A stretch of DNA of 64,000 bases from a bacterium. Its GTDB lineage: Bacteria; Desulfobacterota; JAPLJL01. The position numbers and the translations under genes were made by a program. Location of the stretch: contig JAQTNV010000010.1 of the NCBI GenBank assembly GCA_028713675.1, forward strand, positions 12,369 to 76,368. Reading direction: 5' to 3'. Under the pieces are notes generated by a model. That model made no database searches. It was not told where the DNA came from and saw nothing but the letters and a program-made list of their open reading frames with translations. Shown here piece by piece: positions 24,341 through 64,000 of this stretch. The number at the start of each line of letters is the position of its first letter. The stretch's first letter is position 1.

Positions 24341-24574
24341 ATCATAAATAATCCTCCCCTCCCTGGAGGGGAGGGGACTGAGGGGAGGGTGAACGATGCG
24401 TTTTCTCACCCTCTCCTTCATCCTCCCCCCTCAAGGGGGAGGAAAAATTTACAAATAAAAATACGACAAAGGACGGACAAGACGAGAAAAAAAGGCGGGG
24501 ATAAACCCCGCCCCTACAAAAACAATTTATTTAATAACGTAGGGGAGCCCCTGGTGGGCTCCCTCAATTTAATA

Positions 24575-34356: not shown

Positions 34357-34842
34357 TTAATGACCCAGTGAAAATCCTAATATTTTGCCATTAGTACGAT
34401 CTATAAATACAAAACCATTAAACGCACCTGGAATAGGAGGAAATACTTTTAATTGAAAATAAATTGCCCAATAATTCTTCCCTCCTAAATGCATTTCTTG
34501 AATATTTGGTGAAAGCCAAATCCTTGGATTTCTATATACTTCGTCGTTCCATCTAGTATTATTGTCATCTGCTTTTATTCCAACTGTTTCTTTACCCCAA
34601 GATGGATCGTTTGTCTTTTTTATCAAACCAGCTCTAGCAATTTTTATCGCTTCCGACAAAGTGATGTTCGTTGTTTTCCCGGAAGGATAAGAAAATTCTA
34701 TCGATTTTATAGGAGAAGGATTCTTCTCCGCCTTTGAAGCTTCAGGAGTATGACTGGGAGAGCAATTCAAACATACCAGGAAGGTACAAACAACCCATAG
34801 TGAACAAACAACTCGCATAGAGGTATTATAAATCATTTTCAA
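34357..34842 (-). CDS. Hypothetical small secreted protein encoded in an AT-rich islet
   Basis: The ORF lies entirely in a roughly 530-bp segment of markedly lower GC (visually about 35-40%) than its surroundings. N-terminal hydrophobic Cys-rich signal (VVCSLWVVCTFLVCLNCS). Confidence 0.5.
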   Translation of the reverse strand: MKMIYNTSMRVVCSLWVVCTFLVCLNCSPSHTPEASKAEKNPSPIKSIEFSYPSGKTTNITLSEAIKIARAGLIKKTNDPSWGKETVGIKADDNNTRWNDEVYRNPRIWLSPNIQEMHLGGKNYWAIYFQLKVFPPIPGAFNGFVFIDRTNGKILGFSLGH

Positions 34843-51121: not shown

Positions 51122-51278
51122 CGTCTCCTCCCTTTCTCTGTTTCCGATAAAATTTAACATTTATTACTTGTCCAATCGCTTTTCACCCGCCAGCTTCACT
51201 GCTAGGGATGACCAGCCGGGATTATCTTTATTAGATTTAAAATGGGATGTCAAGAGATGTATACAACAAGCGGTCGTT

Positions 51279-52292
51279 TTAGCAGATTCGGGGGAATTGT
51301 TCGCCGCTCAGCGGTTCCAGAATCCGGTGACCCCCGATCCGGGTCTGGAGAAGAACCCGGCCCGGGTTTTCCCCGGATACCTGGCCGATTATTACCGCAT
51401 CTTTCCCCAGGGGATGAGATCTCATCCGTAAAACCAGCCTGTCCGCCGCCCCTTCCGGGCAGATCGCGATCAATTTGCCTTCATTGGCCAGAAAATAAGG
51501 ATCGAAGCCCAGGAGTTCGCAAACCCCCCTGACCTCGCTTTTGACCGGGATGAGCTCTTCCCGCGCCACCATCCCCACCCCCGAAGCGTTGGCAATCTCC
51601 CAGAGGACCGTGGCCATTCCTCCCCGGGTGGGATCACGCAGGGAATGGAGCTCCGGGACCGTTTCGAGCATCATCTCCACCAGCCCGTTCAGGGGGGCGC
51701 AGTCGCTTTTTACCTCACCCTTGATGGAAAACTCCCCCCGGGCGATCAAAACCGCCACCTCGTGTTCGCCGATAAAGCCGCTGAGAATGATCCGGTCCCC
51801 CGGCCGGGCTTTCCGGCTCTGGATCTCCACCCCTTCCGGGACTATCCCCACCCCGGCGGTGGTAATGAACAATCCCTCCGCCGCCCCTTTCTCCACCACC
51901 TTGGTATCACCGGTCACGATCTTGACCTGCGCCTCCCGGGCGGCTTCCTGCATGGATTGAAGAATCTTTTCCAGGGTTTCCTCCGGAAAACCTTCCTCGA
52001 TAATAAAAGCGGCCGAAAGGCCGAGCGGCTTCGCCCCCGCCATGGCCAGGTCGTTGACCGTGCCGCAGATCGCCAGGCGGCCGATATCCCCGCCCGGAAA
52101 AAACAGGGGTTTGACCACGAAGGAATCGGTGGTGAAAGCCAGACGGCCGGCCTTTTCGCTGGAAAAAACCGCGCTGTCGTCCATCTGGCGGAGAAGATCA
52201 TTATCAAAGTAAGGGAGAAAAAGCCGGTGAACCAAATCGTGGGAGAGTTTTCCCCCCGCCCCGTGGGCTAAAAGTATTTTTTTTGTTTTCAT
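51279..52292 (-). CDS. hypE: [NiFe]-hydrogenase maturation protein HypE
   Basis: AIR-synthase-like fold motifs, with a C-terminal ...PRIC typical of HypE. Confidence 0.85.
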   Translation of the reverse strand: MKTKKILLAHGAGGKLSHDLVHRLFLPYFDNDLLRQMDDSAVFSSEKAGRLAFTTDSFVVKPLFFPGGDIGRLAICGTVNDLAMAGAKPLGLSAAFIIEEGFPEETLEKILQSMQEAAREAQVKIVTGDTKVVEKGAAEGLFITTAGVGIVPEGVEIQSRKARPGDRIILSGFIGEHEVAVLIARGEFSIKGEVKSDCAPLNGLVEMMLETVPELHSLRDPTRGGMATVLWEIANASGVGMVAREELIPVKSEVRGVCELLGFDPYFLANEGKLIAICPEGAADRLVLRMRSHPLGKDAVIIGQVSGENPGRVLLQTRIGGHRILEPLSGEQFPRIC

Positions 52293-52295
52293 ATA

Positions 52296-52372
52296 TGAGA
52301 TTCAGGGTTTAAGGCTCAAGACTCAAAGTTCAAAGAGAGTCATTTTACCTTTGAGCTTTGACCTTTCACCTG
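52296..52372. repeat. CAAAGGTCAAAG / CTTTGACCTTTG imperfect inverted repeat; other copies lie at 9330-9395, 29570-29665 and 36485-36530
   Basis: AAGGTCA-type heptamer units in direct and inverted arrangement, lying in 5' regions of hypE, parA/9514, tolA and gatB. Confidence 0.55.
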
Positions 52373-53458
52373 CTTTGCCATTAGCTCCCTTCCATATTTA
52401 TAATAAGCGGCGCAGGTCCCTTCGGAGGAAACCATGCAGGGTCCCACCGGCAGGTCAGGGGTGCAGGCCCGGGAAAAAAGCGCGCATTCGGGGGGGCGGA
52501 TCAGGCCCTGGAGAACTTCCCCGCACCGGCATCCGGGCGGTTCTCCCGGGTCGGGCAGTTCAAGCGGAAACACCCGGGCCGCGTCCCGCCCGGAGAGCTC
52601 TTCCCGGAGAAAAAGGCCGCTGTCCGGGATTTCTCCCAGGCCCCTCCAGAGAGCCGGGGCGGGCCGGAACATCTCCTCCATCACCTTGAGAGCCAGGACA
52701 TTCCCTTCCGGTTTTACCACCCGCCGATACTGGATCTCGATGGCCGCCCGTTTTTCCCGGACCTGCCGGGCCAGCATTTCAATCCCTTCCAGGATATCGA
52801 GGGGATCGAACCCGGTGATGACCCCGGGGATGCCGTATTCCCGGGCGATGAACTCATAGGGATGGCTGCCGATGATCACGCTCACATGCCCGGGAAGGAT
52901 GAACCCGTCGATTCTGGTTTTCTTCCCGGAAAGAAGCGCCCGGATCGCCGGGGGAACCAGGCGCTGGGATGAATAGATGAAAAAGTTTTTCAGTTCCAGG
53001 CGCCCGGCTTCCCGGACCGCGAAAGCGGTAGCCGGAGAGGTGGTCTCGAAACCGACCGCGAAAAAAATCACCCGCTTTCCGGGATTATCCTGGGCGAGCC
53101 TGACTGCATCCAGGGGAGAAAGCACCACCCGGATGTCGCCGCCTTCCGATTTTTCCTCGTAAAGGGAGGAGTCCGAACCGGGAACCCGGAGCAGGTCCCC
53201 GAAAGTCGCCAGGATGGTGTTTTCCATCCGGCTGTAGACAATGGCGCGGTCAATCTCCTTCTGCGGGGTGATGCAGACCGGGCAGCCCGGCCCGGAAATC
53301 AGCTCAATTTTCGCGGGGAGAAGCGATTTTATCCCGGTGCGGAAGATGGCGATGGTGTGGGTCCCGCAAACCTCCATGAGCCGCAGGGGCCGGTCCGACA
53401 GAAGAGCGATCTTCTCCAGCCGGCTCCGGGCTTCTCCGGCTTCATCCAGCTTTTTCAT
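52340..53458 (-). CDS. hypD: [NiFe]-hydrogenase maturation protein HypD
   Basis: Motifs MEVCGTHT, GPGCPVC and FETT, plus the C-terminal CPVGPCMVSSEGTCAAYY Fe-S motif. Confidence 0.9.
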   Translation of the reverse strand: MKKLDEAGEARSRLEKIALLSDRPLRLMEVCGTHTIAIFRTGIKSLLPAKIELISGPGCPVCITPQKEIDRAIVYSRMENTILATFGDLLRVPGSDSSLYEEKSEGGDIRVVLSPLDAVRLAQDNPGKRVIFFAVGFETTSPATAFAVREAGRLELKNFFIYSSQRLVPPAIRALLSGKKTRIDGFILPGHVSVIIGSHPYEFIAREYGIPGVITGFDPLDILEGIEMLARQVREKRAAIEIQYRRVVKPEGNVLALKVMEEMFRPAPALWRGLGEIPDSGLFLREELSGRDAARVFPLELPDPGEPPGCRCGEVLQGLIRPPECALFSRACTPDLPVGPCMVSSEGTCAAYYKYGRELMAKQVKGQSSKVK

Positions 53459-53675
53459 CGGGTCCGAGAACCAGTTTCAGAACTTCCCGGGTTTCCAGGG
53501 CGTCTTTCTCGTCCATTTTCTGGATGGCGAAGCCCACGTGGACGAGCACATAATCACCCACCCGGGCGTCCGGGCAGAGGGCAAGGCTGACTTTTTTATT
53601 CACCCCGCCGAAATCAATCTCGGCGACCTGGTCTTCCTCGATCGAGATTATTTTTCCCGGAATTCCAAGACACAT
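53442..53675 (-). CDS. hypC: [NiFe]-hydrogenase maturation chaperone HypC/HupF
   Basis: N-terminal MCLGIPGKII signature. 77 aa. Overlaps hypD. Confidence 0.85.
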   Translation of the reverse strand: MCLGIPGKIISIEEDQVAEIDFGGVNKKVSLALCPDARVGDYVLVHVGFAIQKMDEKDALETREVLKLVLGPDEKAG

Positions 53676-53718
53676 TTTAAATCAACTCCAGTTATTCATA
53701 ATATATTTCCTTACCACT

Positions 53719-53775
53719 GGTAGCCGCAGGCTTTTCGATCAGATCCCGAGGTATTGTGGCCGAGGGAAGCCTGCG
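53719..53775 (+). repeat. Long-loop REP variant, copy 3 of 3 (3' flank of the RAYT)
   Basis: Sequence ggtagccgcaggcttttcgatcagatcccgaggtattgtggccgagggaagcctgcg. Confidence 0.75.
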
Positions 53776-53782
53776 TACATTT

Positions 53783-54253
53783 TCACCATTCTTCCAAATT
53801 ATAAACGGTCGATCCCTTAAAAGGATACCCCTTACTATCCGCCGCCAAACCCTTTCGAACAGGATTATTTAAGATGTATTTTACCTGCTTGAGAATATCT
53901 TCATCTTTTCTTAGGACATGATCATAAAAATCTTTTTGCCATTTAATGCCGGGATGATTTCGCCCCAACCAGTAACCGGTTTTTTGCTTGAAGTTTTTGA
54001 TAAATTTTAATAGATCAGATTCATCGGACTTACCCTCCACTAAAACATGAAAATGATCCGGCATAAAAAGAAAAACATGGGCTTCGCATTCTTCTTTCTT
54101 TAAAATATTGATTAACAGGTCAGAGAAAATCCGAGTAATATTTTCCTGAGCAAATAGAGGATACCTCTCTGCAATACAAACCGTAAAAGTAATTATTATT
54201 TTTCCTCGATATAACTTCGTTGATAAACGGTGTCTGCGTTCTCGGATTTCCAT
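53783..54253 (-). CDS. REP-associated tyrosine transposase (RAYT; IS200/IS605-like Y1 HuH transposase)
   Basis: 156 aa. HuH motif FMPDHFHVLV. Catalytic Tyr / NP motif KYILNNPVRKGL. N-terminal YRGKIIITFTV. Flanked on both sides by GTAG-type REP palindromes. Confidence 0.8.
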   Translation of the reverse strand: MEIRERRHRLSTKLYRGKIIITFTVCIAERYPLFAQENITRIFSDLLINILKKEECEAHVFLFMPDHFHVLVEGKSDESDLLKFIKNFKQKTGYWLGRNHPGIKWQKDFYDHVLRKDEDILKQVKYILNNPVRKGLAADSKGYPFKGSTVYNLEEW

Positions 54254-54261
54254 TCAAAACC

Positions 54262-54512
54262 CGCAACCTGCCTGTCCTGAGCTTGTCGAAGGGAAGGTTG
54301 CGCCTACCAAACATTCAAAATCTTATTCTTGTATCGGTAGCCACAGGCTTCAGCCTGCGCAATTCCGCAACCTAAAGGTTGCGCCTACCAAACATTCAAA
54401 ATCTTATTCTTGTATCGGTAGCCGCATGCTTCAGCCTGCGCTATTCCGCAACCTAAAGGTTGCGCCTACCAGAATGTAATTATTTTTACGCAGGCTAAAG
54501 CCTGCAGCTACC
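54262..54512. repeat. BIME-like cluster of six REPs in alternating orientation, including an approximately 84-bp direct duplication
   Basis: REPs at 54262-54308 (-, long loop), 54336-54360 (+), 54365-54389 (-, stem GCAACCT/AGGTTGC), 54417-54441 (+), 54446-54470 (-) and 54488-54512 (-). Each has a GGTAG or CTACC terminus. Confidence 0.75.
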
Positions 54513-54535
54513 TTTTGATGACTTAGGACTTCGGA

Positions 54536-56797
54536 CTATTGATGCATTGCATAATACGCCTGCCCCAGCGAGATCCCCCCATCGTTGGCCGGGACCAGGC
54601 GGTTGATGTAAATCGAAAAACCCGATCCTTCCAGAAGCTCGAAAACCCGGCCCAACAGGAAGTGGTTCTGGAACACCCCCCCGCTCAAAATCAGACTTGA
54701 GTGCCCGGTCCGATCCCGCATCCAGCCCGCCACCCGGGCAATCACCCGGGCCACCGAATTATGAAAGCGGGCGGAGATCACGGATTTATCCGTTCCTTTC
54801 CGGATTTCCTCCACCACCGCCTGGATGACGGGATCCGGATCAATGTTCAAAATCCCTTTGATCTCATCTAAACCGAAAAGATATTCCCCGGGTTCACCCC
54901 GCCGGGCCGCCTGCTCGAGTTCGATGGCCGCCTGGCCTTCATACCTCGCCGCGCCCCGCACCCCGAGCAGGGCGCTGACCGCGTCAAAAAGCCGGCCCGC
55001 GCTCGAGCAGGGCGGGGAATTGATTCCCCGCCTGACCGCCGCCTTCAGGACCGACCATTTCTCCAGATCGAGTTCCCGGACGAAGGGAATATCCAGCCCG
55101 GCCAGCTTTTCCCCGGCTATCCGGTCCAGGTACACGGCCGCCATCCGCCATGGCTCCCTGATCCCCTGCTCCCCTCCCGGCAGCGGGATATAACGGATGT
55201 GCGCGAGCCGCCGGTAGCCCTGCAGAGACACCTCCAGGAACTCTCCGCCCCAGATCGTGCCGTCGTCCCCGTAACCGGTCCCGTCCATCGTCACCGCCAG
55301 CGCCGGACCGGCCAGCCCGTGCTCGGCCATCACGGAGAGCGCGTGGGCATAATGATGCTGGACGCCGACACGGGGTAAAGGGATTTCCCGGGCGTGCCGG
55401 GTGGAGAGATAATCCGGATGCAGGTCGTAGGCGACCAGCCCGGGCTCGATCTCGAAAAAGCGCCGGAAATGCGCGATCCCCTCCTGGAATGATTTCAGGG
55501 TCTCAAAATTCTCCAGGTCCCCGATGTGATGGCTGACGAAGGCCGAACTCCCCTTGGTCAGGCAGAAGGTGTTTTTCAGCTCGGCCCCTAGGGCCAGGAC
55601 GCTTTTTCCGCCCCGCGCGAGGGGAATCGGGGCGGGAACGTAACCCCTCGCCCTTCGTAGGAAAACGGTCCCCCCCCGGAAGGGCTTGATCACGGAATCG
55701 TCGCAGCGGGTGTGGATCTCGCGGTTATGAAAGAGGAAATAATCGGCGATCTCCGCGAGCCGTTTCCGGGCTTCCTCGTCCCGGTAGGCGATCGGCTCAT
55801 CGCTCATGTTCCCGCTGGTCATCACCAGGCAGTCGAGTTCCCCGTCGAAAAGCAGGCGGTGAAGCGGGGTATACGGCAGCATCATCCCCAGGGTGTTTTG
55901 AAAAGGGGCAACAGAAGAGGCGACCCGGGCCCCGGTTTTCATGGGCAGAACCACGATCGGGGCTTCCCGGGATTCCAGCAGTTTCTCCGCCTCCCCGTCC
56001 GCCTCGCAGAGTTCCCGGATGACCCCCAGGTCGCGGGCCATCAGGGCAAAGGGCTTGTCCTCCCGGTATTTCCGGCTCCGGAGCCGGCTGACGGCTTCCT
56101 CGTTCCGGGCCGAAACCGCGAGGTGAAACCCTCCCATCCCCTTGACCGCCACGACCACCCCATTTTTCAAAAGCTTCCGTGTCTCCCCGGCCGGGTCCGG
56201 CCCGGCGATTTCCCGTCCGGCCGGGTCCAGAAGCCGGAGGCCGGGGCCGCAATCCGGGCAGGCATTGGGCTCGGCATGGAAACGGCGGTTTCCCGGGTCG
56301 CGGTATTCCTTTTCGCAGGCCGAGCACATTTTAAAAATCGCCATCGTGGTTTTTTCCCGATCGTAGGGTACGTCCCGGATGATCGTGAAACGCGGCCCGC
56401 AGTTGGTGCAGTTGATAAAAGGATAATGAACGCGGCGGTCCTTCTGATCAGAAAACTCCCGGAGGCAATCCCCGCAAATTGCGATGTCGGGCGGGACGAG
56501 AGCTGATCTCTCCCCGCCCCGTTCGCTTTCCCGGATTTCAAAGCTTTTATCACCAACCGGGGGCAGGTCATGGGTGAGGATATTTTCAATTCGGGCCTGG
56601 GGCGGGCTCGCTTTGAGACTGGAAAGAAAACCCTGGATAATGTCCTTCTCCCCCTCAACCTCAATCTGTACACCCTTCTCATCATTTAAAACCCATCCGG
56701 AGAGGCCGTGTTTTCGGGCGAGGTTATAAACAAAGGGGCGGAATCCCACCCCCTGGACTATTCCCTCGACCAGAATATGAACACGGGATTTAGTCAT
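54536..56797 (-). CDS. hypF: Carbamoyltransferase HypF (acylphosphatase, Zn-fingers, YrdC and Kae1-like domains)
   Basis: 753 aa. Acylphosphatase N-terminus (VHILVEGIVQGVGFRPFVY). Two CxxC...CxxC Zn-finger pairs. YrdC/Kae1 segments. Confidence 0.9.
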   Translation of the reverse strand: MTKSRVHILVEGIVQGVGFRPFVYNLARKHGLSGWVLNDEKGVQIEVEGEKDIIQGFLSSLKASPPQARIENILTHDLPPVGDKSFEIRESERGGERSALVPPDIAICGDCLREFSDQKDRRVHYPFINCTNCGPRFTIIRDVPYDREKTTMAIFKMCSACEKEYRDPGNRRFHAEPNACPDCGPGLRLLDPAGREIAGPDPAGETRKLLKNGVVVAVKGMGGFHLAVSARNEEAVSRLRSRKYREDKPFALMARDLGVIRELCEADGEAEKLLESREAPIVVLPMKTGARVASSVAPFQNTLGMMLPYTPLHRLLFDGELDCLVMTSGNMSDEPIAYRDEEARKRLAEIADYFLFHNREIHTRCDDSVIKPFRGGTVFLRRARGYVPAPIPLARGGKSVLALGAELKNTFCLTKGSSAFVSHHIGDLENFETLKSFQEGIAHFRRFFEIEPGLVAYDLHPDYLSTRHAREIPLPRVGVQHHYAHALSVMAEHGLAGPALAVTMDGTGYGDDGTIWGGEFLEVSLQGYRRLAHIRYIPLPGGEQGIREPWRMAAVYLDRIAGEKLAGLDIPFVRELDLEKWSVLKAAVRRGINSPPCSSAGRLFDAVSALLGVRGAARYEGQAAIELEQAARRGEPGEYLFGLDEIKGILNIDPDPVIQAVVEEIRKGTDKSVISARFHNSVARVIARVAGWMRDRTGHSSLILSGGVFQNHFLLGRVFELLEGSGFSIYINRLVPANDGGISLGQAYYAMHQ

Positions 56798-56818
56798 GAT
56801 CCTCGGTGAATCTGCCGG

Positions 56819-57280
56819 TTACCTGCTCTTGAATTCGTTGAGAACGGTTTCGGTAATCTTCGGAAGCTGGGCTTTTACCTCCGGCGTAAGTTCCATTCCC
56901 ATTTCCATCTCTTTGGGCTCGACGCCGATGATGATCACCTCGGCGTGGAAATCCCCCGCCTGTTTAGCCAGCTGGATCACCTGGAGCGGCCCCATGGCGT
57001 GGAGCGAAAGCGCGGCGTCCACCGGCAGGCTCTCCGGGGTCAGACGGTAAATCGTTCCCGGGGGCGCCCCGGTTCGCAGGGCGTCAATGATTACGATTTT
57101 TTCCGCGGCCTGGATCTGGGGCAGGTAGTCGAGGATCGAGGTTTCCGCCTCTATCACCAGGACCCCCGGGGGGAGCTTTTCCCGCTCGAGGGCATGGACC
57201 GCGTGCATCCCCACTCCCTCATCCTGGAAGATGGTATTACCCACGCCGATGATTAAAGTCTTAGGTGTTTCCATAACCAT
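56819..57280 (-). CDS. Hydrogenase maturation endopeptidase (HyaD/HybD family)
   Basis: Motifs LIIGVGNTIFQDEGVG and IIDAL. 153 aa. Confidence 0.85.
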   Translation of the reverse strand: MVMETPKTLIIGVGNTIFQDEGVGMHAVHALEREKLPPGVLVIEAETSILDYLPQIQAAEKIVIIDALRTGAPPGTIYRLTPESLPVDAALSLHAMGPLQVIQLAKQAGDFHAEVIIIGVEPKEMEMGMELTPEVKAQLPKITETVLNEFKSR

Positions 57281-57344
57281 TTTATCTGATTATAACCGAT
57301 CCGACTTCCCGGATTCCCTATTGATTCATGCCTTTGGATGTAAT

Positions 57345-57374
57345 TGACAATAATAGACCGATCAGTCTATTATT
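57345..57374 (+). promoter_or_regulatory. Putative sigma-70 promoter of tetR with an overlapping TetR operator (TAATAGAC-N6-GTCTATTA)
   Basis: TTGACA at 57345-57350, a 17-bp spacer and a TATTAT-like -10. A perfect 8-bp-arm palindrome at 57351-57372 fills the spacer. Confidence 0.55.
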
Positions 57375-57396
57375 TATTTCCAGGAGAAATTCGGAT

Positions 57397-58023
57397 TTGA
57401 AAACTGCGAAGAAGCTGACGGCCAAGGGGCAGTCAAGAAAGAAAGAATTCCTCGAAAAAGCGTTGGACCTTTTCGGCGAGAAAGGCTATCACGCTACCAC
57501 CATTGACGATATTGTCAGGGCCGGGGCTACCGGCAAAGGCACTTTCTATTGGTATTGGCAAAGCAAGGACGAGATTTTCCTGGAATTGCTCTCAAATAAG
57601 TTCGAGAGTTACATCTCCGCCTTGGAAAATATTCAGCAAATGAAGCTGCCTACCGCCGACAAGCTCATCATGCTGTTCACCGAAATCGGGAATATGCTCG
57701 TGAAATACCGTAAATTATGCAAACTTATTTATCTGTTGATTTCTACCAATGCCGATGAATTCAACTCCGACGTCCTGAAAGTGACCAATGACTATTATTC
57801 CCGTTTTCGCAAGATTCTTGTTCAGTTTATCCAGGACGGTCAGAAGGAAGGCAGCATATCCCGTGATGTTGATGCGCAGCATCTGGCCACCATTTTAATT
57901 TCGATCGTCGACGGCCTTCTGCTTCAAGAAAAAGTAATGAATACCAATTATTTGCATCCGAAAATGGGGGAATCGTTAATTCGAGTGCTGAGAAGTGGAA
58001 TTATGGTTAAATCCGCGGGGTGA
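57397..58023 (+). CDS. TetR/AcrR-family transcriptional regulator
   Basis: HTH region KKEFLEKALDLFGEKGYHATTIDDIVRAGATGKGTFYWYWQSKDEIF. Probable TTG start at 57397 after an AGGAGA RBS. The ORF track begins at 57328, but that stretch covers the operator palindrome. Confidence 0.7.
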   Translation: MKTAKKLTAKGQSRKKEFLEKALDLFGEKGYHATTIDDIVRAGATGKGTFYWYWQSKDEIFLELLSNKFESYISALENIQQMKLPTADKLIMLFTEIGNMLVKYRKLCKLIYLLISTNADEFNSDVLKVTNDYYSRFRKILVQFIQDGQKEGSISRDVDAQHLATILISIVDGLLLQEKVMNTNYLHPKMGESLIRVLRSGIMVKSAG

Positions 58024-58042
58024 TATTTTTTTCAAGCATAAC

Positions 58043-58059
58043 TAGACCGGCTAGTCTAT
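58043..58059 (+). promoter_or_regulatory. Second TAGAC-N6-GTCTA operator-like palindrome, about 30 bp upstream of the aldehyde dehydrogenase start
   Basis: The sequence tagaccggctagtcta shares half-sites with the site at 57351-57372. Confidence 0.5.
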
Positions 58060-58089
58060 TGTCAGTCCAGAACCGGAAAGGAGAAAAAG

Positions 58090-59640
58090 ATGAGCAATCC
58101 GACTCACAAAGAGAATAAATCGCCGAATGAAGCCCAGTCGAAAATCCGGGTCAATAGTCCTCTGGACGGGTCTTTGGTCGGCGAAGTTCCCGCCTTCAGT
58201 ATCGAAGAAGCCAGGCAGAAGCTCGCCGAAGTCCGCCGGGCCCAGCTCGCGTGGGCCCGGACTTCGTTCCCCCAAAGACGCCGGATCATGCATGAATTTC
58301 TAAAACATCTGGTGCGAAGGTCCGACGAGCTGGCTGAACTCATCTCCCGGGAGACCGGAAAAACCCTTTACGAAGCTAATGTTTTCGAAATCATGCCTCT
58401 GATCCGCCTGACCTCCTACTTCGCCAACCGGGCCGGAAAGATCCTGCGAAAAAGAAGGATTTCGATTTCTATCTTCAAGAACCGTTCCAGCTACCTGCAT
58501 TATCGCCCGCGCGGCGTGGTCCTGATCATCGCGCCCTGGAATTTTCCGTTGAACATCCCGGGGGGCGAGGCAATCATGTCATTAATGGCCGGGAACGGGG
58601 TCCTGCTTAAACCCGCTTCCCTCACGCCCCTCATCGCTTACAAGCTCCGAGAGATATTCGACGAAGCCGGATTGGATAAAAATCTTTTTCAAATTGTTTC
58701 CGGTCCGGGAGTGATCGCCTCGGAGCTGATCGAGAGCGGAGTGGATTACGTTAATTTCACCGGCTCAACCGCGGTCGGCAAAAAAGTCTCCGAGTTATGC
58801 GGCCGCAAGCTGACGCCCTGCTCAATGGAACTGGGAGGAAAGGCGCCGGCGATCATCTGTGAAGACGCCGACCTTGAATATACTTCGAAATCAATCGTCT
58901 GGGGGGCATTCGCCAATTCCGGTCAGATTTGCGCTTCGGTGGAACGGGTTTACGTGCCTGAAAATATTTACGATTCCTTCCTGAAAAAGGCTTTGAGCCA
59001 CGCCCGAACCATCCGGCAGGGAAACCCCTTGAAGGGCGAGATGGACATGGGGGCCATGACCGACCCCCGGCAGCTGGAAATCCTGGAGGGAATGATTACC
59101 GAAGCCAGGGAGAAAGGGGCGAAAATACTTCTCGGCGGCCGCCGGTCGCCCCAGGGCAAGATGTTCTTCGAGCCCACCGTGATCGCCGATGCCGACGAAA
59201 GCATGCGGGTCGGCTGCGAGGAATCCTTCGGACCGCTCCTGACCATAATGAAGGTAAAAAATGAAGAGGAAGCCATCCGACGGGCAAACGACAGCAGTTA
59301 CGGCTTGATCGCTTACGTTTACTCCGCCAATTGCTCCCAGGCTAGGAAGATCGCCGAGCGGCTCGAAGCCGGCACGGTCATGATCAACGAAGTCCTGATG
59401 AGCCACGCCTTCCCGGAAGCGCCCTGGCAAGGGGTAAAGGAAAGCGGGGTCGGCCGGGTCCACTCCGATGACGGCCTCCGAGACCTCACCTACCCCTACC
59501 ATGTCAATTACGAACTTATCCCCCTGAGGGTCCCCGTAGGTTATCCCTATAGCAATAACAAAGCGAAACTGCTGGTAAAAACCATGGCCAGGATCAATCG
59601 GGGTGGTTTGGGGAAAATCGTCGACATTCTGCTGAAATAG
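58090..59640 (+). CDS. NAD(P)-dependent aldehyde dehydrogenase
   Basis: ALDH motifs: catalytic Glu (ELGGKAP) and catalytic Cys region (GQICASVERVYV). 516 aa. Confidence 0.85.
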   Translation: MSNPTHKENKSPNEAQSKIRVNSPLDGSLVGEVPAFSIEEARQKLAEVRRAQLAWARTSFPQRRRIMHEFLKHLVRRSDELAELISRETGKTLYEANVFEIMPLIRLTSYFANRAGKILRKRRISISIFKNRSSYLHYRPRGVVLIIAPWNFPLNIPGGEAIMSLMAGNGVLLKPASLTPLIAYKLREIFDEAGLDKNLFQIVSGPGVIASELIESGVDYVNFTGSTAVGKKVSELCGRKLTPCSMELGGKAPAIICEDADLEYTSKSIVWGAFANSGQICASVERVYVPENIYDSFLKKALSHARTIRQGNPLKGEMDMGAMTDPRQLEILEGMITEAREKGAKILLGGRRSPQGKMFFEPTVIADADESMRVGCEESFGPLLTIMKVKNEEEAIRRANDSSYGLIAYVYSANCSQARKIAERLEAGTVMINEVLMSHAFPEAPWQGVKESGVGRVHSDDGLRDLTYPYHVNYELIPLRVPVGYPYSNNKAKLLVKTMARINRGGLGKIVDILLK

Positions 59641-59654
59641 TTTATTCAGCGATT

Positions 59655-59695
59655 AAAAAGCCTGCCTTCCCCAGATCGGGAAAGACAGGCTTTTT
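59655..59695. terminator. Bidirectional intrinsic terminator between the convergent aldehyde dehydrogenase and hydrogenase large-subunit genes
   Basis: Near-perfect 41-bp palindrome aaaaagcctgccttccccagatcgggaaagacaggcttttt. Confidence 0.7.
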
Positions 59696-59724
59696 ATAAC
59701 GCTTTAATATTCAGTATTCCGGAC

Positions 59725-61284
59725 TTATTCCACGATGAACTTGCGGACCTCGTTGGTCTGCGGATCGATCAGGTGGATCGCGCAGGCCGAGCAGGGGTCG
59801 AAGGAGCGGATGATCCGGACCAGGTTGATCGGGTTCTTCGGGTCCTTCACCGGGGCCCCGATCAGGGCCTCTTCGAACTGTCCCCGCACGCCGCTCTCGT
59901 CCCGGGGCGAGCTGTTCCAGGTGGTCGGGACCACGGCCGAGTAGTTCGCGATCTTCTTGTCCTTGATCGAGATCCAGTGCCCGAGGGCTCCCCGCGGCGC
60001 CTCGTAGAACCCGGCGCCCATCCCGTCGGTGGGTTCCCAGTGGTCGGTGTCGTGGATTCTGAAACCGGGCTTGGCCATCTGGGACTGGAGCTGGTCGATC
60101 CATTTGTAGCAGGCGTCGAGGACCAGTTTGGTCTCGAGCGCCCGGGCCGCGTGCCGGGCCACCACCCCGGGCTTGGCTCCCTTGGCAACCAGGTCGAGAA
60201 GATCGGGGTTTTTGGCCACCAGCAGGCGGGCCATCGGCCCCACTTCCATCGGCTTCCCGTCATACCGGGGGGCCTTGGAGAAGGAATAGGCTTCCTTCTT
60301 GTCCAGGTTGAAAACCTGCCGGCCATCCTTCGGATGGCCGGGCTGGGCGTCCTGGTACCAGCCGTACTTGACCGACTCGGTGATCTTGGCCGGGTCGCAA
60401 GGATCAACCTTAATGCTGGCCGGGTTGAGCCCGAGAATCACTCCGCCGGGGAAGAGCTGGGTCTTGCCTTCCGGATCCATTTCGAAACCGCCGTAGGCCA
60501 GGTAATTCAGATGCCCGGCGCCGAGCCCCGCCTTGGCCAGAGGGAAGAGCGGACCGGTCCCGACCGCCAGCACATCCTTCAGGTAAACGTTTTCGATAAA
60601 ATTCTTCTGTTCGTCCAGCATTGTCCGGAACTTTTTAACCTGTTCCGCATCCGGCTGCTGGGTGAAACCGCCCGCCACGATGCTCTGGTAATGCGGGGTG
60701 CGCCCGCCGAAGATGGCCCCCATGTTCCTGGCCTTGGCGTGCATGATCAGGGCGTCGAGGTAATGCTTGACCAGGGTGGTCACCACCTCGGGGTCCTTCA
60801 CGCAGTATTCGTCCGGCTCGTACCGGGGGGTAAGCGGGAAGGTGTCCTTGGCGTTGACCAGGCCGACAATCTTGTCCTTTACCCCGAGCAGGGCCTTGTC
60901 ACTGCCCTTGTAATTCGCCACCGCCATGATGTCCAGGTAATCCAGGGCGGAGAGCTGGTAGAAATGCAGGGGATGGTCATAAAGGTACTGCGCCCCCATC
61001 ACCAGGTTCCGGAGCAGGATCCCGCCGTAAGGGACCTTGGCCCCGACCGCGGATTCGATCGCTCGGGCCGAACAGATCTGGTGCACCGAGTAGCAGACCC
61101 CGCAGAAGCGGCTGGTCACGTAGGGGGCGTCCCGGGGGTCCTTGTCCTTGAGCAGGGCTTCAATCCCGCGGGCCATCGTGCCGCTGACCCAGGCGTTCTT
61201 GACCTGATCCTTTTCCAGCTCAACCTCGATTTTATAATGTCCCTCCAGCCTGGTTACTGGATCGATTACGATTCTCTTGGTCAT
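59725..61284 (-). CDS. [NiFe]-hydrogenase large subunit
   Basis: N-terminal RLEGH and RFCGVC motifs. C-terminal DPCSACAIH Ni-binding motif, followed by a 15-aa cleavable extension. Cys rather than Sec at that position indicates a NiFe type, not NiFeSe. Confidence 0.9.
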   Translation of the reverse strand: MTKRIVIDPVTRLEGHYKIEVELEKDQVKNAWVSGTMARGIEALLKDKDPRDAPYVTSRFCGVCYSVHQICSARAIESAVGAKVPYGGILLRNLVMGAQYLYDHPLHFYQLSALDYLDIMAVANYKGSDKALLGVKDKIVGLVNAKDTFPLTPRYEPDEYCVKDPEVVTTLVKHYLDALIMHAKARNMGAIFGGRTPHYQSIVAGGFTQQPDAEQVKKFRTMLDEQKNFIENVYLKDVLAVGTGPLFPLAKAGLGAGHLNYLAYGGFEMDPEGKTQLFPGGVILGLNPASIKVDPCDPAKITESVKYGWYQDAQPGHPKDGRQVFNLDKKEAYSFSKAPRYDGKPMEVGPMARLLVAKNPDLLDLVAKGAKPGVVARHAARALETKLVLDACYKWIDQLQSQMAKPGFRIHDTDHWEPTDGMGAGFYEAPRGALGHWISIKDKKIANYSAVVPTTWNSSPRDESGVRGQFEEALIGAPVKDPKNPINLVRIIRSFDPCSACAIHLIDPQTNEVRKFIVE

Positions 61285-61321
61285 TTCCTTTTCTCCTTTC
61301 TAAAGGATTGGAATCCGGCCC

Positions 61322-62317
61322 TTAACCCTTGACCGAGATCAATCCGGCCTGCTTCTTCGCCAAAATCTTTTTCGAGACCTCTCCCTCCGATGTGAAGAGG
61401 GGGGTCATCTGGCCGTAGAAAGTCGGCTCGGCACACCCCTGGCACCCCGCTCCGCAGTCGATGCAGAAGTTGGTCTTGTCATTCCAAAGGCGGACAGGGC
61501 AATCGGAATTGGTATTCGGCCCCTTGCAGCCTTTTTCGAAAAGGCAGTAATCCTTCTGGGCCGGATCGTTCCAGTCCTTTAAAAACTTCGAGTCGTCGAA
61601 ATTTTGTCTCCGCTTGCAGTTTTCGTGGACCACCGGGCCGAAGAAAATCTTGGGCCGGCCGTTGTCGTCGAGTTCGGGGGCCTTGCCGGTAGTCAGGATC
61701 TGGACAATGGTTCCGACCAGGTGCTCGGGATGCACCGGGCAGGTGGAAAGGTTGATCACGGTCTTTTCCGGAAGGAGCTTCTTGACCCCCATCCCCCTGC
61801 TCGGGGAGGCCGCGGGGATCCCGCCGAAGGAGGCGCAGGCCCCCACCGCCAGGATCATGCTGGCCTTGCCCGCCGCCTCTTGTACGATCTTCTTGAAGGG
61901 GCGCCCGCCGATCATGCAGAAACGATCGTCCGCCTCGGGGATCGAGCCTTCCACCACCAGGAGATAACCGCCCTTCTTGAGGGCGTCCTGGTAGGCGCTT
62001 TCCGCGACCTCACCGGACGCCGCCATGATGGTCTCGTGATACCGGATCGAGAGCTTGTCCAGGATCAGGGAAGCCACCGGCGGGTTCAGGGAGCCGGTCA
62101 GCGAGATGGTGCAGCCCGTGCAGTCCTGGCCGTTGAGCCAGACCACCGGGAGTTTCCCGCTTCCGCCTTTTTCCGCGGCCTGCGCGAGGCTCTTGAGAAT
62201 GGCCGACTCGGAAAGGCCGGTCATGGCCCCCAGGATCCCTATATACTTGAGGAAATCCCGGCGCGAGACACCCCTTAACTCGAGATCCTTCTCCATAATT
62301 TTTTCATAATCGTCCAT
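61322..62317 (-). CDS. [NiFe]-hydrogenase small subunit with a Tat signal (periplasmic)
   Basis: Twin-arginine motif SRRDFLKYIG. Fe-S Cys clusters (CTGCT..., CPVHPEH, CIDCGAGCQGCAEP). Confidence 0.9.
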   Translation of the reverse strand: MDDYEKIMEKDLELRGVSRRDFLKYIGILGAMTGLSESAILKSLAQAAEKGGSGKLPVVWLNGQDCTGCTISLTGSLNPPVASLILDKLSIRYHETIMAASGEVAESAYQDALKKGGYLLVVEGSIPEADDRFCMIGGRPFKKIVQEAAGKASMILAVGACASFGGIPAASPSRGMGVKKLLPEKTVINLSTCPVHPEHLVGTIVQILTTGKAPELDDNGRPKIFFGPVVHENCKRRQNFDDSKFLKDWNDPAQKDYCLFEKGCKGPNTNSDCPVRLWNDKTNFCIDCGAGCQGCAEPTFYGQMTPLFTSEGEVSKKILAKKQAGLISVKG

Positions 62318-62463
62318 TTTCCCTCCTCGGTTTGGACAAATATTATTCTCGACAATATAGAGGTATTTTGTTCCGACTCAGTTAGTATTGCTTAACCTTT
62401 CCGAAAAATGATTTTTATAATTAAATAAATTAGGTTTTACCGCCCACGCTGGAGGTAAATTCC

Positions 62464-62490
62464 TGACATATGTCAAGATTGACATATAAG
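62464..62490. promoter_or_regulatory. Perfect 12-bp palindrome TGACATATGTCA plus a direct TGACATAT repeat in the modE-like / hydrogenase small-subunit intergenic region
   Basis: The sequence tgacatatgtcaagattgacatataag lies about 150 bp upstream of the hynA start. It is a candidate operator for the hydrogenase operon. Confidence 0.35.
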
Positions 62491-62596
62491 TTAAAAATAA
62501 CAACCCCCCTGCAACCTGGTTTTTCCGAACAACCAGAATGTATGAATTTAACCGGGCCGGGAGGCGGAACCCGGGAAACCCGCCGCGATCGCCGTC

Positions 62597-63004
62597 TTAT
62601 TCCTTCTTGCGGGACACTCCCTTTTTAACGGAAGGCTTTTCTTCTGAGGCGTACTTGTTTATGTGTGCTTGAAAAATATTTTTTGCTTCTTTCAAAGCGA
62701 CGGCTTCCACGGTATCAAACCATTTCAGGAACCTGTCTCTCATTTCTTTTCCTTCCTGGGTCAGCTGGTATCCTTCGCGCTTTTCTCCCCGGCGCTTGAG
62801 CAGTTTAACCCCCGTGGCTTTTTGGGTGGCTTTGATCTTTCCCCAGGCGGCCCGGTACGACATCCCCAGTTTGTCCGCGGCTTTCCGCAGAGACCCGAGT
62901 TCTTCGATGGCGTTAAGCAATTGGACGCGCCCGATGCCGAAATAAATGCCCTGGTTATCTTCCAGCCAGAGGTGCAGCCGCAAAGTGAGGTTTTTCCGAT
63001 CCAT
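62597..63004 (-). CDS. ModE-like winged-HTH transcriptional regulator (N-terminal-domain-only type)
   Basis: HTH motif GSLRKAADKLGMSYRAAWGKI, typical of the ModE N-terminal domain. 135 aa. Lies upstream of the hydrogenase structural genes. Confidence 0.55.
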   Translation of the reverse strand: MDRKNLTLRLHLWLEDNQGIYFGIGRVQLLNAIEELGSLRKAADKLGMSYRAAWGKIKATQKATGVKLLKRRGEKREGYQLTQEGKEMRDRFLKWFDTVEAVALKEAKNIFQAHINKYASEEKPSVKKGVSRKKE

Positions 63005-63220
63005 CTTTGCTCCTTCTATATTTTTTGCCCGATAATTTTCCGCCGGTTCAAGTAAAGAAGCATCCAGATTATATGTTAGGAATAATATGCAAGCAAAGAA
63101 ACGACCACGATCAACTTTGCTTTAATGACAGGTCGGGAGAAGATTCGCTACCGAAAATTAAAGGGGCGGCCCCAACGAGCCGCCCCTTGTATATATTCGC
63201 GATCGGGTAAAAACCGATTC

Positions 63221-64000
63221 TTATTTATGGCAGGCCAGGCAGACCCCGGCTTTGTTCTGGCTCAGGTTGCTCTCCCATCCTTTGGGATGTGGGCTCACCC
63301 CGCCCGCGACGCCGCCGATCTGATGGCACTGGATGCAGTTGGAACTCATGCCCTGGTCGTGACAGGCCGCGCACTTGAGGATATCCCTCCGGGCGTCCCG
63401 GCCATGATCGTTCTGCCATCCCGCCGGATGAGGATTGGCGGGTGAATTGGAATAACCCCGGGCCACTCCCTCGCGCGCGTGACACGCGTTACAGCTGGAT
63501 AACCCGTGGCATTGCAGGCAGAGGCTCTGGTCCGTCCGGGCATCGATGGAATGCTGGGTCCGATAATCTCCCCGGTGGATGAATTGTCTTTCGAGCGCTT
63601 CGGGGTATTTTACGCTCGGTTTTAAAACCTCCTTCTTCGAATGGCAGTCCGAGCAGAAGGCCTGGTCGTGGCACTGCCCGCAGACCTCCACCCCGACTCC
63701 CTTCAAAGCCGATTCCCGGTGTTCCTTCAGGTAATTGCCCTTATGGGAAAACTTGGTGATCGGTTTGAGCTTCATCTGCTGCAGGTCCGGGTGGCATTTG
63801 GAACACTGGAGGTCGGTGAACATCTGGGCGTGGCAGGCCTGGCACTCTTGATGGCCCGGAAGCGTGAAGCTGTCCCGGGTCTTGCTGATGTCTTTGCGCT
63901 GATGACAGGCCTGGCACTCCGCTTTGGACGCTTCCGTATGCAGTTTGTGGGAGAAATTCATTTCCAGTTTGTCGATTTTCACCTGAAGCGGTTTCTGGGG
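63221..64000 (-). CDS. Multiheme cytochrome c (10 or more CxxCH motifs); 5' end runs off the window
   Basis: Ten CxxCH motifs in 253 aa. No stop codon between 63982 and the window edge and no signal peptide is seen, so the N-terminus lies outside the window. Confidence 0.8.
   Translation of the reverse strand, partial: PQKPLQVKIDKLEMNFSHKLHTEASKAECQACHQRKDISKTRDSFTLPGHQECQACHAQMFTDLQCSKCHPDLQQMKLKPITKFSHKGNYLKEHRESALKGVGVEVCGQCHDQAFCSDCHSKKEVLKPSVKYPEALERQFIHRGDYRTQHSIDARTDQSLCLQCHGLSSCNACHAREGVARGYSNSPANPHPAGWQNDHGRDARRDILKCAACHDQGMSSNCIQCHQIGGVAGGVSPHPKGWESNLSQNKAGVCLACHK

What the first reader, a model, noticed from the sequence alone, without database searches (positions are those of the whole stretch)
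57328..59700. Lower-GC tetR-aldehyde dehydrogenase module wedged into the [NiFe]-hydrogenase locus, with paired TAGAC-N6-GTCTA operators
The hydrogenase structural genes (61322..62317 and 59725..61284, minus strand) and the maturation protease plus hypF (minus strand, 54536..57280) are separated by a plus-strand tetR (57397..58023) and ALDH (58090..59640) pair. Its codon and GC make-up look AT-richer than the flanks. The module ends in a strong bidirectional terminator (59655-59695). Two palindromes share the same half-sites. TAATAGAC-CGATCA-GTCTATTA lies in the spacer of a TTGACA/TATTAT promoter in front of tetR. TAGAC-CGGCTA-GTCTA lies in front of the ALDH gene. This looks like a self-contained, autoregulated aldehyde-detoxification cassette that was inserted between hydrogenase genes.
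Basis: partly seen in the sequence, partly recalled or inferred. Interest (0 to 1): 0.55.

Follow-up and report, generated by a model that had tools for sequence, protein, structure and literature searches.

The report
Inserted TetR–aldehyde dehydrogenase cassette in hydrogenase locus
A compact two-gene unit, a TetR-type repressor with its own two DNA binding sites plus an aldehyde dehydrogenase, was dropped into the spacer between the hydrogenase structural genes and their maturation genes; it is a well-documented but ordinary case of gene insertion.

Summary
tetR (57397..58023) and an ALDH (58090..59640) lie on the + strand between minus-strand hydSL and the protease-hypF genes. The only two TAGAC-N6-GTCTA palindromes in 64 kb sit in front of these two genes.

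Synteny shows an insertion. The sister MAG (L001, HydL 90%) has hydL, terminator and protease with no cassette. So do 41 of 45 more distant loci. Three closer relatives (window, L002, L085) carry the cassette and form a clade (92% bootstrap). The insert is about 2.33 kb (about 57322..59650). It landed between the native hydL terminator and a conserved TATAAT in front of the protease gene, so no operon was cut.

The same tetR-ALDH pair recurs in three unrelated contexts (TetR 42-51% identical). Each copy has the same two operators, and the motif occurs nowhere else in those loci.

- The terminator belongs to hydL, not to the cassette.
- Only tetR is a clear composition outlier. ALDH codon usage is unremarkable.
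- No mobility genes or terminal repeats were found.

The operator has the half-sites and spacing of the palindrome in the E. coli nemR promoter. The protein is only 15-17% identical to NemR. The ALDH substrate and the TetR effector remain unknown.

This is a new member of a known kind and of modest interest.

The parts
57322..59650 (+). Inserted segment of about 2.33 kb. Boundaries are good to about +/-5 nt on the left and +/-8 nt on the right.
   Evidence: Homology with the empty site of L001 runs up to GGATTCyyTrT (window 57311-57321) on one side. It resumes at AAAAAGCCTG (59655) on the other. No target-site duplication or terminal inverted repeat was found.
57344..57373 (+). tetR promoter: TTGACA, 18 nt, TATTAT
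   Evidence: Only sigma-70-like site in 56700-60000, 11 of 12 matches. The same hexamers and spacing occur in L002 and L085.
57354..57369 (.). Operator O1, TAGACCGATCAGTCTA (extended palindrome 57349-57374). It lies in the promoter spacer and overlaps the -10 element.
   Evidence: A site is conserved in front of tetR in L002, L085, L081, L082 and L087.
57397..58023 (+). tetR: 208-aa TetR/AcrR-family regulator with a TTG start. AGGAGA lies at 57382-57387. It has a single Cys, at position 108.
   Evidence: Pfam TetR_N 1.7e-16 and TetR_C_6. Best solved relative is MbdR 4uds, 3e-19. Cys108 is conserved in all homologues of 41-95% identity. dN/dS is 0.08.
58043..58058 (.). Operator O2, TAGACCGGCTAGTCTA, 32 nt before the ALDH start codon
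   Evidence: A second site at the same relative position occurs in every other copy of the cassette.
58090..59640 (+). 516-aa aldehyde dehydrogenase. AAGGAG lies at 58078-58083.
   Evidence: Pfam Aldedh 3.7e-140. The nearest curated family is PRK09407 succinic semialdehyde dehydrogenase, 448.8 bits, below its cut-off of 521. Asn151, Glu247, Cys281 and the GSTAVG motif are present. dN/dS is 0.10-0.13.
59654..59696 (.). Hairpin with an A-run on one side and a T-run on the other. It is the native hydL terminator and now also closes the convergent ALDH gene.
   Evidence: Fold z-scores are -6.3 and -6.8. A homologous hairpin followed by TTTTT lies after hydL in cassette-free L001.
57289..57294 (-). 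Conserved TATAAT within GATCGGTTATAATCA. It is the probable -10 element of the protease-hypF transcription unit and is host DNA just outside the insert.
   Evidence: The 15-mer is identical in the window, L002, L085 and L001, while the surrounding spacer varies. Its promoter function is inferred; the scan did not call a full promoter here.
56819..57280 (-). Hydrogenase maturation protease (flank). The likely true start is the ATG at 57274.
   Evidence: Pfam HycI 8.9e-27. The L001 fragment begins METPKTLIIGVGN.
59725..61284 (-). [NiFe]-hydrogenase large subunit (flank)
   Evidence: Pfam NiFeSe_Hases 2.7e-145. NCBIfam NF033181, 721.9 bits, above its cut-off of 600.

Best explanation
A minimal, portable regulatory cassette was acquired horizontally and inserted into the roughly 125-nt spacer between the hydL terminator and the start of the protease gene. 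This happened on the branch leading to the window organism and its two closest known relatives. The cassette consists of the promoter with operator O1, tetR, operator O2 and ALDH.

**Effect on the host locus.** The insert landed between a terminator and the putative -10 element of the next unit. It interrupts neither hydSL nor protease-hypF. The convergent ALDH gene now ends on the pre-existing hydL terminator.

**Inferred mechanism.**
- A TetR dimer binds the 16-bp palindrome TAGACY-N4-RGTCTA at O1, inside the spacer and -10 element of its own promoter. This shuts off tetR and read-through into ALDH.
- A second TetR dimer binds O2, just upstream of the ALDH ribosome-binding site. It acts as a roadblock or represses a weak internal promoter.
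- An aldehyde, or a closely related small molecule, releases the repressor.
- The NAD(P)+-dependent ALDH then oxidises the aldehyde to its acid.

**What is shown and what is inferred.**
- Shown: the insertion and its polarity, the modularity, the conservation of both operators, the catalytic residues and purifying selection.
- Inferred: DNA binding, the identity of the effector and substrate, and a detoxification rather than a catabolic role.
For: **Insertion.**
- L001 (HydL 90%) has hydS, hydL, terminator, 17 nt and then the protease upstream region, with no tetR or ALDH.
- Among 45 loci with a protease downstream of hydL, 41 have gaps under 700 bp. Only L002, a cassette carrier, has tetR or ALDH.
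- The HydL tree places L001 as sister to the three cassette carriers, with 458 of 500 bootstraps.

**Modularity.**
- tetR-ALDH pairs occur in L081 (Myxococcota; TetR 51%, ALDH 62%), L082-84 (43% and 54%) and L087 (42% and 54%).
- Their neighbours are unrelated: radical SAM, glutamate synthase, PD-(D/E)XK nuclease and Hsp20.

**Operators.**
- Six loci total about 113 kb. The motif with at most one mismatch occurs exactly 12 times.
- There are always two per locus, one before tetR and one before or at the start of ALDH.
- The chance expectation is 0.33 per 64 kb.

**Promoter.** O1 sits in the spacer of an 11-of-12 sigma-70 consensus.

**Function retained.** dN/dS is 0.08-0.13. ALDH Asn151, Glu247 and Cys281 are present.

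**Composition.** tetR GC3 is 0.57 against a window median of 0.73. The cassette in L081 has almost the same GC (0.459 and 0.550).

**Precedent.** The E. coli nemR promoter carries TAGACCGACTGGTCTA 14 nt before nemR. NemR autorepresses nemRA-gloA through an inverted repeat in that promoter and is released by glyoxals and other electrophiles (PMC13178969, PMC5297802).
Against: - No integrase, transposase, tRNA gene, target-site duplication or terminal inverted repeat marks the insert. The insertion mechanism is therefore unknown.
- ALDH codon usage is not distinguishable from the host's.
- No close donor was found. The best relative outside the clade is only 51% (TetR) and 62% (ALDH) identical.
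- The nearest curated ALDH family is a catabolic enzyme, succinic semialdehyde dehydrogenase, which argues for caution about 'detoxification'.
- No recognisable promoter precedes ALDH in the window clade, so how O2 acts is uncertain.
- All relatives are metagenome assemblies.
- L001's spacer is itself rearranged further downstream, with a duplicated protease 5' end.
Confidence: 0.8

Rival explanations
1. The cassette is a catabolic unit rather than a stress or detoxification unit. On this view the ALDH is a GabD2-type succinic semialdehyde (or similar) dehydrogenase that feeds a carbon source into central metabolism. The TetR would respond to that metabolite or to an acyl-CoA.
For: - The best curated family is PRK09407 succinic semialdehyde dehydrogenase (448.8 bits).
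- The best solved relative is a succinate-semialdehyde dehydrogenase, 8of1, 2.8e-82.
- The TetR's best solved relatives are MbdR and Bacillus FadR. From my own knowledge, both respond to acyl-CoA.
Against: - The score is below the family cut-off of 521.
- No transaminase, transporter or other pathway gene travels with the pair in any of four contexts.
- A two-gene unit that moves alone fits a stand-alone protective function better.
Confidence: 0.3
2. The arrangement is ancestral to the whole group, and L001 lost the cassette by a clean deletion.
For: - Synonymous divergence of hydL between the window and L001 (dS 0.315) is no larger than between the window and L085 (0.311).
- The L001 spacer shows other rearrangements.
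Against: - The HydL protein tree puts L001 outside the carrier clade (92% bootstrap).
- All outgroups at 62-74% identity lack the cassette.
- tetR composition is foreign.
- Even under this rival, the cassette was still inserted, only earlier.
Confidence: 0.07
3. The cassette has been recruited into hydrogenase biology. For example, TetR at O1 might also control the divergent protease-hypF unit, or the ALDH might supply or consume reductant linked to H2 metabolism.
For: - O1 lies in the 116-nt divergent region shared with the protease gene.
- The arrangement has been kept in three diverged relatives.
Against: - The centre of O1 is about 70 nt upstream of the conserved protease TATAAT, outside the usual repression range.
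- That TATAAT and the hydL terminator predate the insertion.
- In the other three lineages the cassette has no hydrogenase neighbours.
Confidence: 0.06
4. The palindromes are chance or serve another factor and are not sites for this TetR.
For: With one mismatch allowed, 3 of 100 shuffles of the window gave two or more matches.
Against: - Both are exact matches.
- Both lie in the only two intergenic spacers of the cassette.
- The pair is conserved in position across four lineages whose TetR proteins are only 42-51% identical, with no other match in about 113 kb.
Confidence: 0.03

Closest known systems
E. coli nemRA-gloA operon (NemR, a TetR-family sensor of electrophiles and glyoxals)
   Same: - The repressor gene comes first and is followed by enzymes that remove reactive carbonyls.
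- Autorepression works through an inverted repeat in its own promoter (PMC13178969, PMC5297802).
- The palindrome before nemR, TAGACCGACTGGTCTA, has the same TAGAC/GTCTA half-sites and 6-nt spacing as O1 and O2.
- The recognition-helix stretch is similar: KGTFYWYWQSK here and KGSFYHYFRSK in NemR.
   Different: - Overall identity is only 15-17%, and there is no NemR family hit.
- The enzyme is an ALDH, not an old-yellow-enzyme reductase plus glyoxalase I.
- There are two operators instead of one.
- The single Cys108 aligns two residues away from NemR Cys106, not in the same column.
- That the E. coli palindrome is the published NemR box rests on my memory of Umezawa et al. 2008. That paper could not be opened.
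betIBA-type TetR plus ALDH operons (BetI with betaine aldehyde dehydrogenase BetB)
   Same: A TetR-family repressor is encoded next to, and controls, an aldehyde dehydrogenase. Pfam also matches the BetI-type C-terminal domain TetR_C_6.
   Different: - BetI equivalog models score 26.5 bits against a cut-off of 201.
- BADH models score 327 bits against 668.
- No choline dehydrogenase or transporter is present.
MbdR (PDB 4uds), the TetR regulator of the Azoarcus mbd cluster
   Same: It is the best sequence match among solved structures (3.1e-19, residues 6-203). It shows the same full-length TetR architecture.
   Different: From my own knowledge, it controls a large anaerobic 3-methylbenzoate pathway, responds to a CoA thioester and uses a different operator. 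No such pathway is present here.
GabD2-type succinic semialdehyde dehydrogenase (NCBIfam PRK09407)
   Same: It is the best-scoring curated ALDH family. The match includes the C-terminal extension (residues 11-488 of 516).
   Different: The score of 448.8 is below the curated cut-off of 521, so substrate assignment is not justified.

Membership tests
TetR/AcrR family repressor | N-terminal TetR-type helix-turn-helix domain | tested here: met
   PF00440, 60.2 bits against a cut-off of 24, residues 19-64.
TetR/AcrR family repressor | All-helical C-terminal ligand and dimerisation domain | tested here: met
   TetR_C_6, 28.9 bits against a cut-off of 27. Full-length alignment to MbdR 4uds, residues 6-203.
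TetR/AcrR family repressor | Palindromic operator at its own or the adjacent promoter | tested here: met
   O1 lies in the spacer of the tetR promoter and O2 lies before ALDH. Both are conserved in four lineages.
TetR/AcrR family repressor | Ligand-relieved DNA binding | not testable with these tools
   Needs EMSA or reporter assays.
NemR (electrophile-sensing TetR) | Orthology to NemR by sequence | tested here: not met
   17% identity by BLASTP. hhalign gives 96.7% probability but 15% identity, which means superfamily level only. NemR is not among the NCBIfam hits.
NemR (electrophile-sensing TetR) | TAGACC-N4-GGTCTA type operator | tested here: met
   The E. coli K-12 nemR upstream region carries TAGACCGACTGGTCTA. 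The window carries TAGACCGATCAGTCTA and TAGACCGGCTAGTCTA.
NemR (electrophile-sensing TetR) | Sensing cysteine equivalent to Cys106 (also Cys21 and Cys116) | tested here: not met
   The only Cys (108) aligns with NemR Ser104. NemR Cys106 aligns with Leu110. There is no equivalent of Cys21 or Cys116. A different, subfamily-invariant Cys does exist.
NAD(P)+-dependent aldehyde dehydrogenase superfamily | Catalytic Cys, general-base Glu, oxyanion Asn and a Rossmann GxTxxG motif | tested here: met
   Cys281 (GQIC), Glu247 (ELGGK), Asn151 (WNFP) and G225-STAVG. Pfam Aldedh 468 bits.
GabD2-type succinic semialdehyde dehydrogenase (PRK09407) | Score above the curated equivalog cut-off | tested here: not met
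   448.8 bits against a cut-off of 521.
Mobile element or genomic island (IS, transposon, integrative element) | Mobility gene, terminal repeats, target-site duplication or a tRNA attachment site | tested here: not met
   No terminal direct or inverted repeats. No tRNA in 50000-64000. No mobility genes next to any copy of the cassette. The RAYT gene at 53783-54253 is 3 kb away and separate.
Intrinsic (factor-independent) terminator | GC-rich hairpin followed by a U-run | tested here: met
   19-bp arms, with TTTTT after the stem on the hydL strand and on the ALDH strand. z-scores are -6.3 and -6.8.

The most novel reading that the evidence does not exclude
This rare TetR subfamily comprises six 90%-identity clusters among 5.8 billion proteins at 41% identity or more. 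It may be an uncharacterised covalent sensor of reactive aldehydes. On this reading it uses its single invariant cysteine (Cys108, in the conserved motif KYRK[LF]CKL) and a NemR-like operator. Together with its ALDH it would form the smallest known self-contained aldehyde-stress module. The module would spread between phyla without any mobility gene.
Probability: 0.2. Interest if true: 0.45.

Novelty: new member of a known kind. Interest (0 to 1): 0.3.

Why it matters
**As biology.** This is a clean, datable example of how a minimal regulator-plus-enzyme cassette enters a conserved operon cluster without damaging it. It lands between a terminator and the putative promoter of the next unit, and it reuses the host terminator.

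**As a resource.** It defines an uncharacterised TetR subfamily with:
- a confidently predicted operator, TAGACY-N4-RGTCTA;
- a fixed two-operator layout;
- an invariant cysteine.

These features make the subfamily easy to test and possibly useful as an aldehyde-responsive switch.

**Limits.** It does not change how hydrogenase loci or TetR regulators are understood.

Tried and rejected
- **Terminal repeats.** I looked for a target-site duplication or terminal inverted repeats at the insert ends and found none. Weak similarity between TGAATAAA and TGAATCAATA at the two junctions was judged not convincing.
- **Chimeric ALDH.** I tested whether the window ALDH is a chimera of the two paralogues in L085. 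It is closer to ALDH2 in every 150-nt window.
- **Composition as proof of foreign origin.** This holds for tetR only. ALDH ranks 24th of 40 genes in codon-usage distance.
- **Cys108 as the counterpart of NemR Cys106.** Both BLASTP and hhalign place it two residues away, so the claim was dropped to a weak lead.
- **RNA features.** Rfam and tRNA scans of the region showed nothing relevant.
- **Metagenome scan.** A scan with the TetR alignment gave only one further true family member, L087. The other 79 loci are unrelated TetRs at 33% identity or less over an extended match (one reaches 38% over 65 residues only), and none has an adjacent ALDH.
- **Literature.** Two loosely worded searches were wasted. 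The papers that define the NemR binding site (PMC2519536, PMC3650415) are not held. No paper describing a member of this TetR subfamily was found.
- **QacR.** I recall that the QacR IR1 operator also contains TAGACCGATC half-sites. This was not checked and is only a lead.
- **DNA for P0003.** No DNA was available for the 76%-identical TetR P0003.
Full report
**1. What is there**

- A 208-aa TetR-family protein is encoded at 57397..58023 (+). Pfam gives TetR_N at 1.7e-16 plus a BetI-type C-terminal domain.
- A 516-aa aldehyde dehydrogenase is encoded at 58090..59640 (+). Pfam gives Aldedh at 3.7e-140.
- On one side lie the minus-strand [NiFe]-hydrogenase genes, hydL 59725..61284 and hydS 61322..62317. 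HydS has a Tat signal.
- On the other side lie the minus-strand maturation protease 56819..57280 and hypF 54536..56797.

The real tetR start is the TTG at 57397.
- AGGAGA lies 9 nt upstream.
- Homologues begin at the same place.
- The upstream ATG at 57328 lies before the promoter.

TAGAC-N6-GTCTA occurs exactly twice in the 64-kb window, even with one mismatch allowed, at 57354-57369 and 58043-58058. The expected number is 0.33. The first copy sits in the 18-nt spacer of TTGACA/TATTAT (57344-57373). That is the only sigma-70-like site in the region.

**2. Composition**

| Gene | GC | GC3 |
|---|---|---|
| tetR | 0.448 | 0.57 |
| ALDH | 0.555 | 0.69 |
| hydL | 0.62 | 0.85 |
| protease | 0.58 | 0.75 |
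| hypF | 0.61 | 0.74 |

- Against all genes of the window (median GC3 0.73), tetR is among the lowest. It ranks 5th of 40 in codon-usage distance.
- ALDH ranks 24th of 40 and is not an outlier.
- Composition alone would therefore not establish foreign origin of the pair.

**3. Synteny settles the question**

A scan of one genome per species with HydL returned 80 loci.
- In L002 (HydL 97%) the order is hydL, ALDH, tetR, protease, hypF, as in the window.
- In L001 (HydL 90%, protease 86%, HypF 87%) hydL is followed by the protease gene with no tetR or ALDH.
- Among 45 loci with the protease downstream of hydL, 41 have a gap under 700 bp. The only carrier of tetR or ALDH is L002.
- A third carrier, L085 (HydL 94%), came from looking up the 95%-identical TetR.
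- A HydL tree puts the three carriers in one clade with L001 as sister. Bootstrap support is 458 of 500.

One insertion on the stem of that clade is the simplest reading.

**4. Where exactly it went in**

Reading L001 from the hydL stop codon gives this order:
- a strong hairpin followed by TTTTT (-31.9 kcal/mol);
- 17 nt of spacer;
- GAATCC...GATCGGTTATAATCA;
- the protease start.

The window shares the hairpin (59654-59696) and the GGATTC...TATAAT stretch (57289-57321). Everything between about 57322 and about 59650 is extra.

Three consequences follow.
- The 'bidirectional terminator' is the host's hydL terminator, not part of the cassette.
- The 15-mer containing TATAAT is identical in all four relatives, so it is probably the -10 element of a separate protease-hypF unit.
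- The insert therefore landed between a terminator and a promoter and cut no transcription unit.

In the window and in L085 the hairpin has runs of A and T on both sides. This suits termination of the convergent ALDH gene as well.

No target-site duplication, terminal inverted repeat, tRNA gene or mobility gene marks the insert.

**5. The pair is a portable unit with two fixed operators**

TetR homologues are few: 27 hits, of which six clusters are at 41% identity or more. Wherever DNA was available, the TetR gene is followed directly by an orthologous ALDH.

| Locus | Source | TetR identity | ALDH identity |
|---|---|---|---|
| L081 | Myxococcota MAG | 51% | 62% |
| L082-84 | one locus seen in three samples | 43% | 54% |
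| L087 | metagenome contig | 42% | 54% |

The neighbours differ completely between loci. They include radical SAM, glutamate synthase and an ATPase pair, and a PD-(D/E)XK nuclease with Hsp20.

In the six loci (about 113 kb) the motif with at most one mismatch occurs 12 times. There are two per locus, one in front of tetR and one in front of, or at the very start of, ALDH. It occurs nowhere else. The consensus is TAGACY-N4-RGTC(T/G)A, usually preceded by an A-rich run.
- In the window clade, O1 lies between the -35 and -10 elements.
- In L081 and L087 both sites follow or overlap a TAAAAT/TATTAA-like -10 element.
- In the window clade no convincing promoter precedes O2. ALDH is probably expressed mainly by read-through from the tetR promoter, with O2 as a second block.

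**6. The genes are in use**

Between the window and L002 or L085, dN/dS is 0.08 for tetR and 0.10-0.13 for ALDH. The value for hydL is 0.10. ALDH keeps Asn151, Glu247, Cys281 and the GSTAVG nucleotide-binding motif.

**7. What it resembles**

- *ALDH.* The nearest curated family is GabD2-type succinic semialdehyde dehydrogenase, PRK09407. The score of 448.8 bits is below the cut-off of 521. The best solved relative is also a succinate-semialdehyde dehydrogenase, 8of1. The substrate is therefore open.
- *TetR.* The best solved relative is MbdR, 4uds, at 3e-19. It is followed by FadR-like proteins and QacR.
- *Operator.* The operator matches, in half-sites and spacing, the palindrome TAGACCGACTGGTCTA that lies 14 nt before E. 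coli nemR.
- *NemR biology.* NemR autorepresses nemRA-gloA through an inverted repeat in that promoter. Glyoxals, quinones, NEM and bleach release it through cysteine modification (PMC13178969, PMC5297802, PMC9342713).
- *Distance from NemR.* The window TetR is only 15-17% identical to NemR overall. The recognition-helix stretch is more similar.
- *Cysteine.* Its only cysteine, Cys108, is invariant in all homologues down to 41% identity. It aligns two residues from NemR Cys106, not with it.

The cassette therefore works like nemRA-gloA in layout, but it is not a NemR orthologue. Thiol-based sensing is only a possibility.

**8. Mechanism proposed**

- TetR dimers occupy O1 and O2, occluding the promoter and acting as a roadblock or internal repressor.
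- An aldehyde or a related metabolite releases them.
- tetR and ALDH are then transcribed to the shared hairpin.
- The ALDH oxidises the aldehyde.

My confidence in each step is:
- insertion and its polarity, about 0.9;
- the palindromes as this TetR's operators, about 0.85;
- an aldehyde-responsive protective role rather than a catabolic one, about 0.5;
- covalent sensing through Cys108, about 0.2.

**9. Variation within the clade**

- L085 carries an extra ALDH paralogue between tetR and the orthologue of the window ALDH. It is 75% identical to the window ALDH and has GC 0.485.
- The window ALDH is closer to the distal L085 copy (ALDH2) in every 150-nt window tested.
- The spacer with O2 matches the one before the proximal L085 copy. 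Whether one or two ALDH genes were inserted originally is unresolved.
- TetR is closer to L085 (95%) than to L002 (90%). HydL and ALDH show the reverse. This hints at recombination among relatives.

**10. Verdict**

- This is a new member of a known kind. It is a tidy example with a well-defined predicted operator, and it is not a surprise to a specialist.

Noticed in passing
window 53783-54253 (-) and 54294-54471: A REP-associated tyrosine transposase gene (NCBIfam NF047646, 90.8 bits against a cut-off of 80) with GC 0.36 lies between hypF and hypC/hypD. Directly upstream are 2.2 copies of an 81-nt unit, 96% identical, that contains short hairpins. This is a second, independent low-GC insertion in the same hydrogenase maturation locus.
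   Followed up: partly
window 34357-34842 (-): A 161-aa ORF has GC 0.35 and GC3 0.25. It has no Pfam match and is the strongest codon-usage outlier in the window. Its N-terminus is hydrophobic and signal-like.
   Followed up: no
L001 11685-11845: In the cassette-free relative, the first ~45 nt of the protease gene occur twice. The copies are separated by a ~65-nt G-rich palindromic insert (CCCCTCCCCTGGCGGGAGGGGACCGGAGGGGAGGGGG). This gives the functional gene a new N-terminus. One similar sequence lies in the window at 24356-24376.
   Followed up: partly
L085 875-4029: This relative has two tandem ALDH paralogues after tetR. ALDH1 is 75% identical to the window ALDH (GC 0.485) and ALDH2 is 85% identical. 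A degenerate remnant of the O2-bearing spacer lies before ALDH2.
   Followed up: partly
window tetR, ALDH and hydL compared with L002 and L085: The relationships are discordant. TetR is 95% identical to L085 and 90% to L002. HydL is 94% and 97%, and ALDH is 85% and 91%. Synonymous divergence of the cassette genes exceeds that of the flanks in some comparisons. Recombination inside the cassette among relatives is possible.
   Followed up: no
window 62597-63004 (-) and 63221-63982 (-): A short ORF with a LysR-type HTH and a multihaem cytochrome c gene lie upstream of hydS on the same strand. A low-GC spacer (62101-62800, GC about 0.41) lies between hydS and the multihaem cytochrome c gene and overlaps the start of the LysR-type ORF.
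   Followed up: no
L082 5980-7886: An AAA_15/AAA_21 ATPase gene and an overlapping 204-aa ORF with no family match lie directly upstream of the tetR-ALDH pair in that lineage. The pair looks like a small defence-type gene pair.
   Followed up: no
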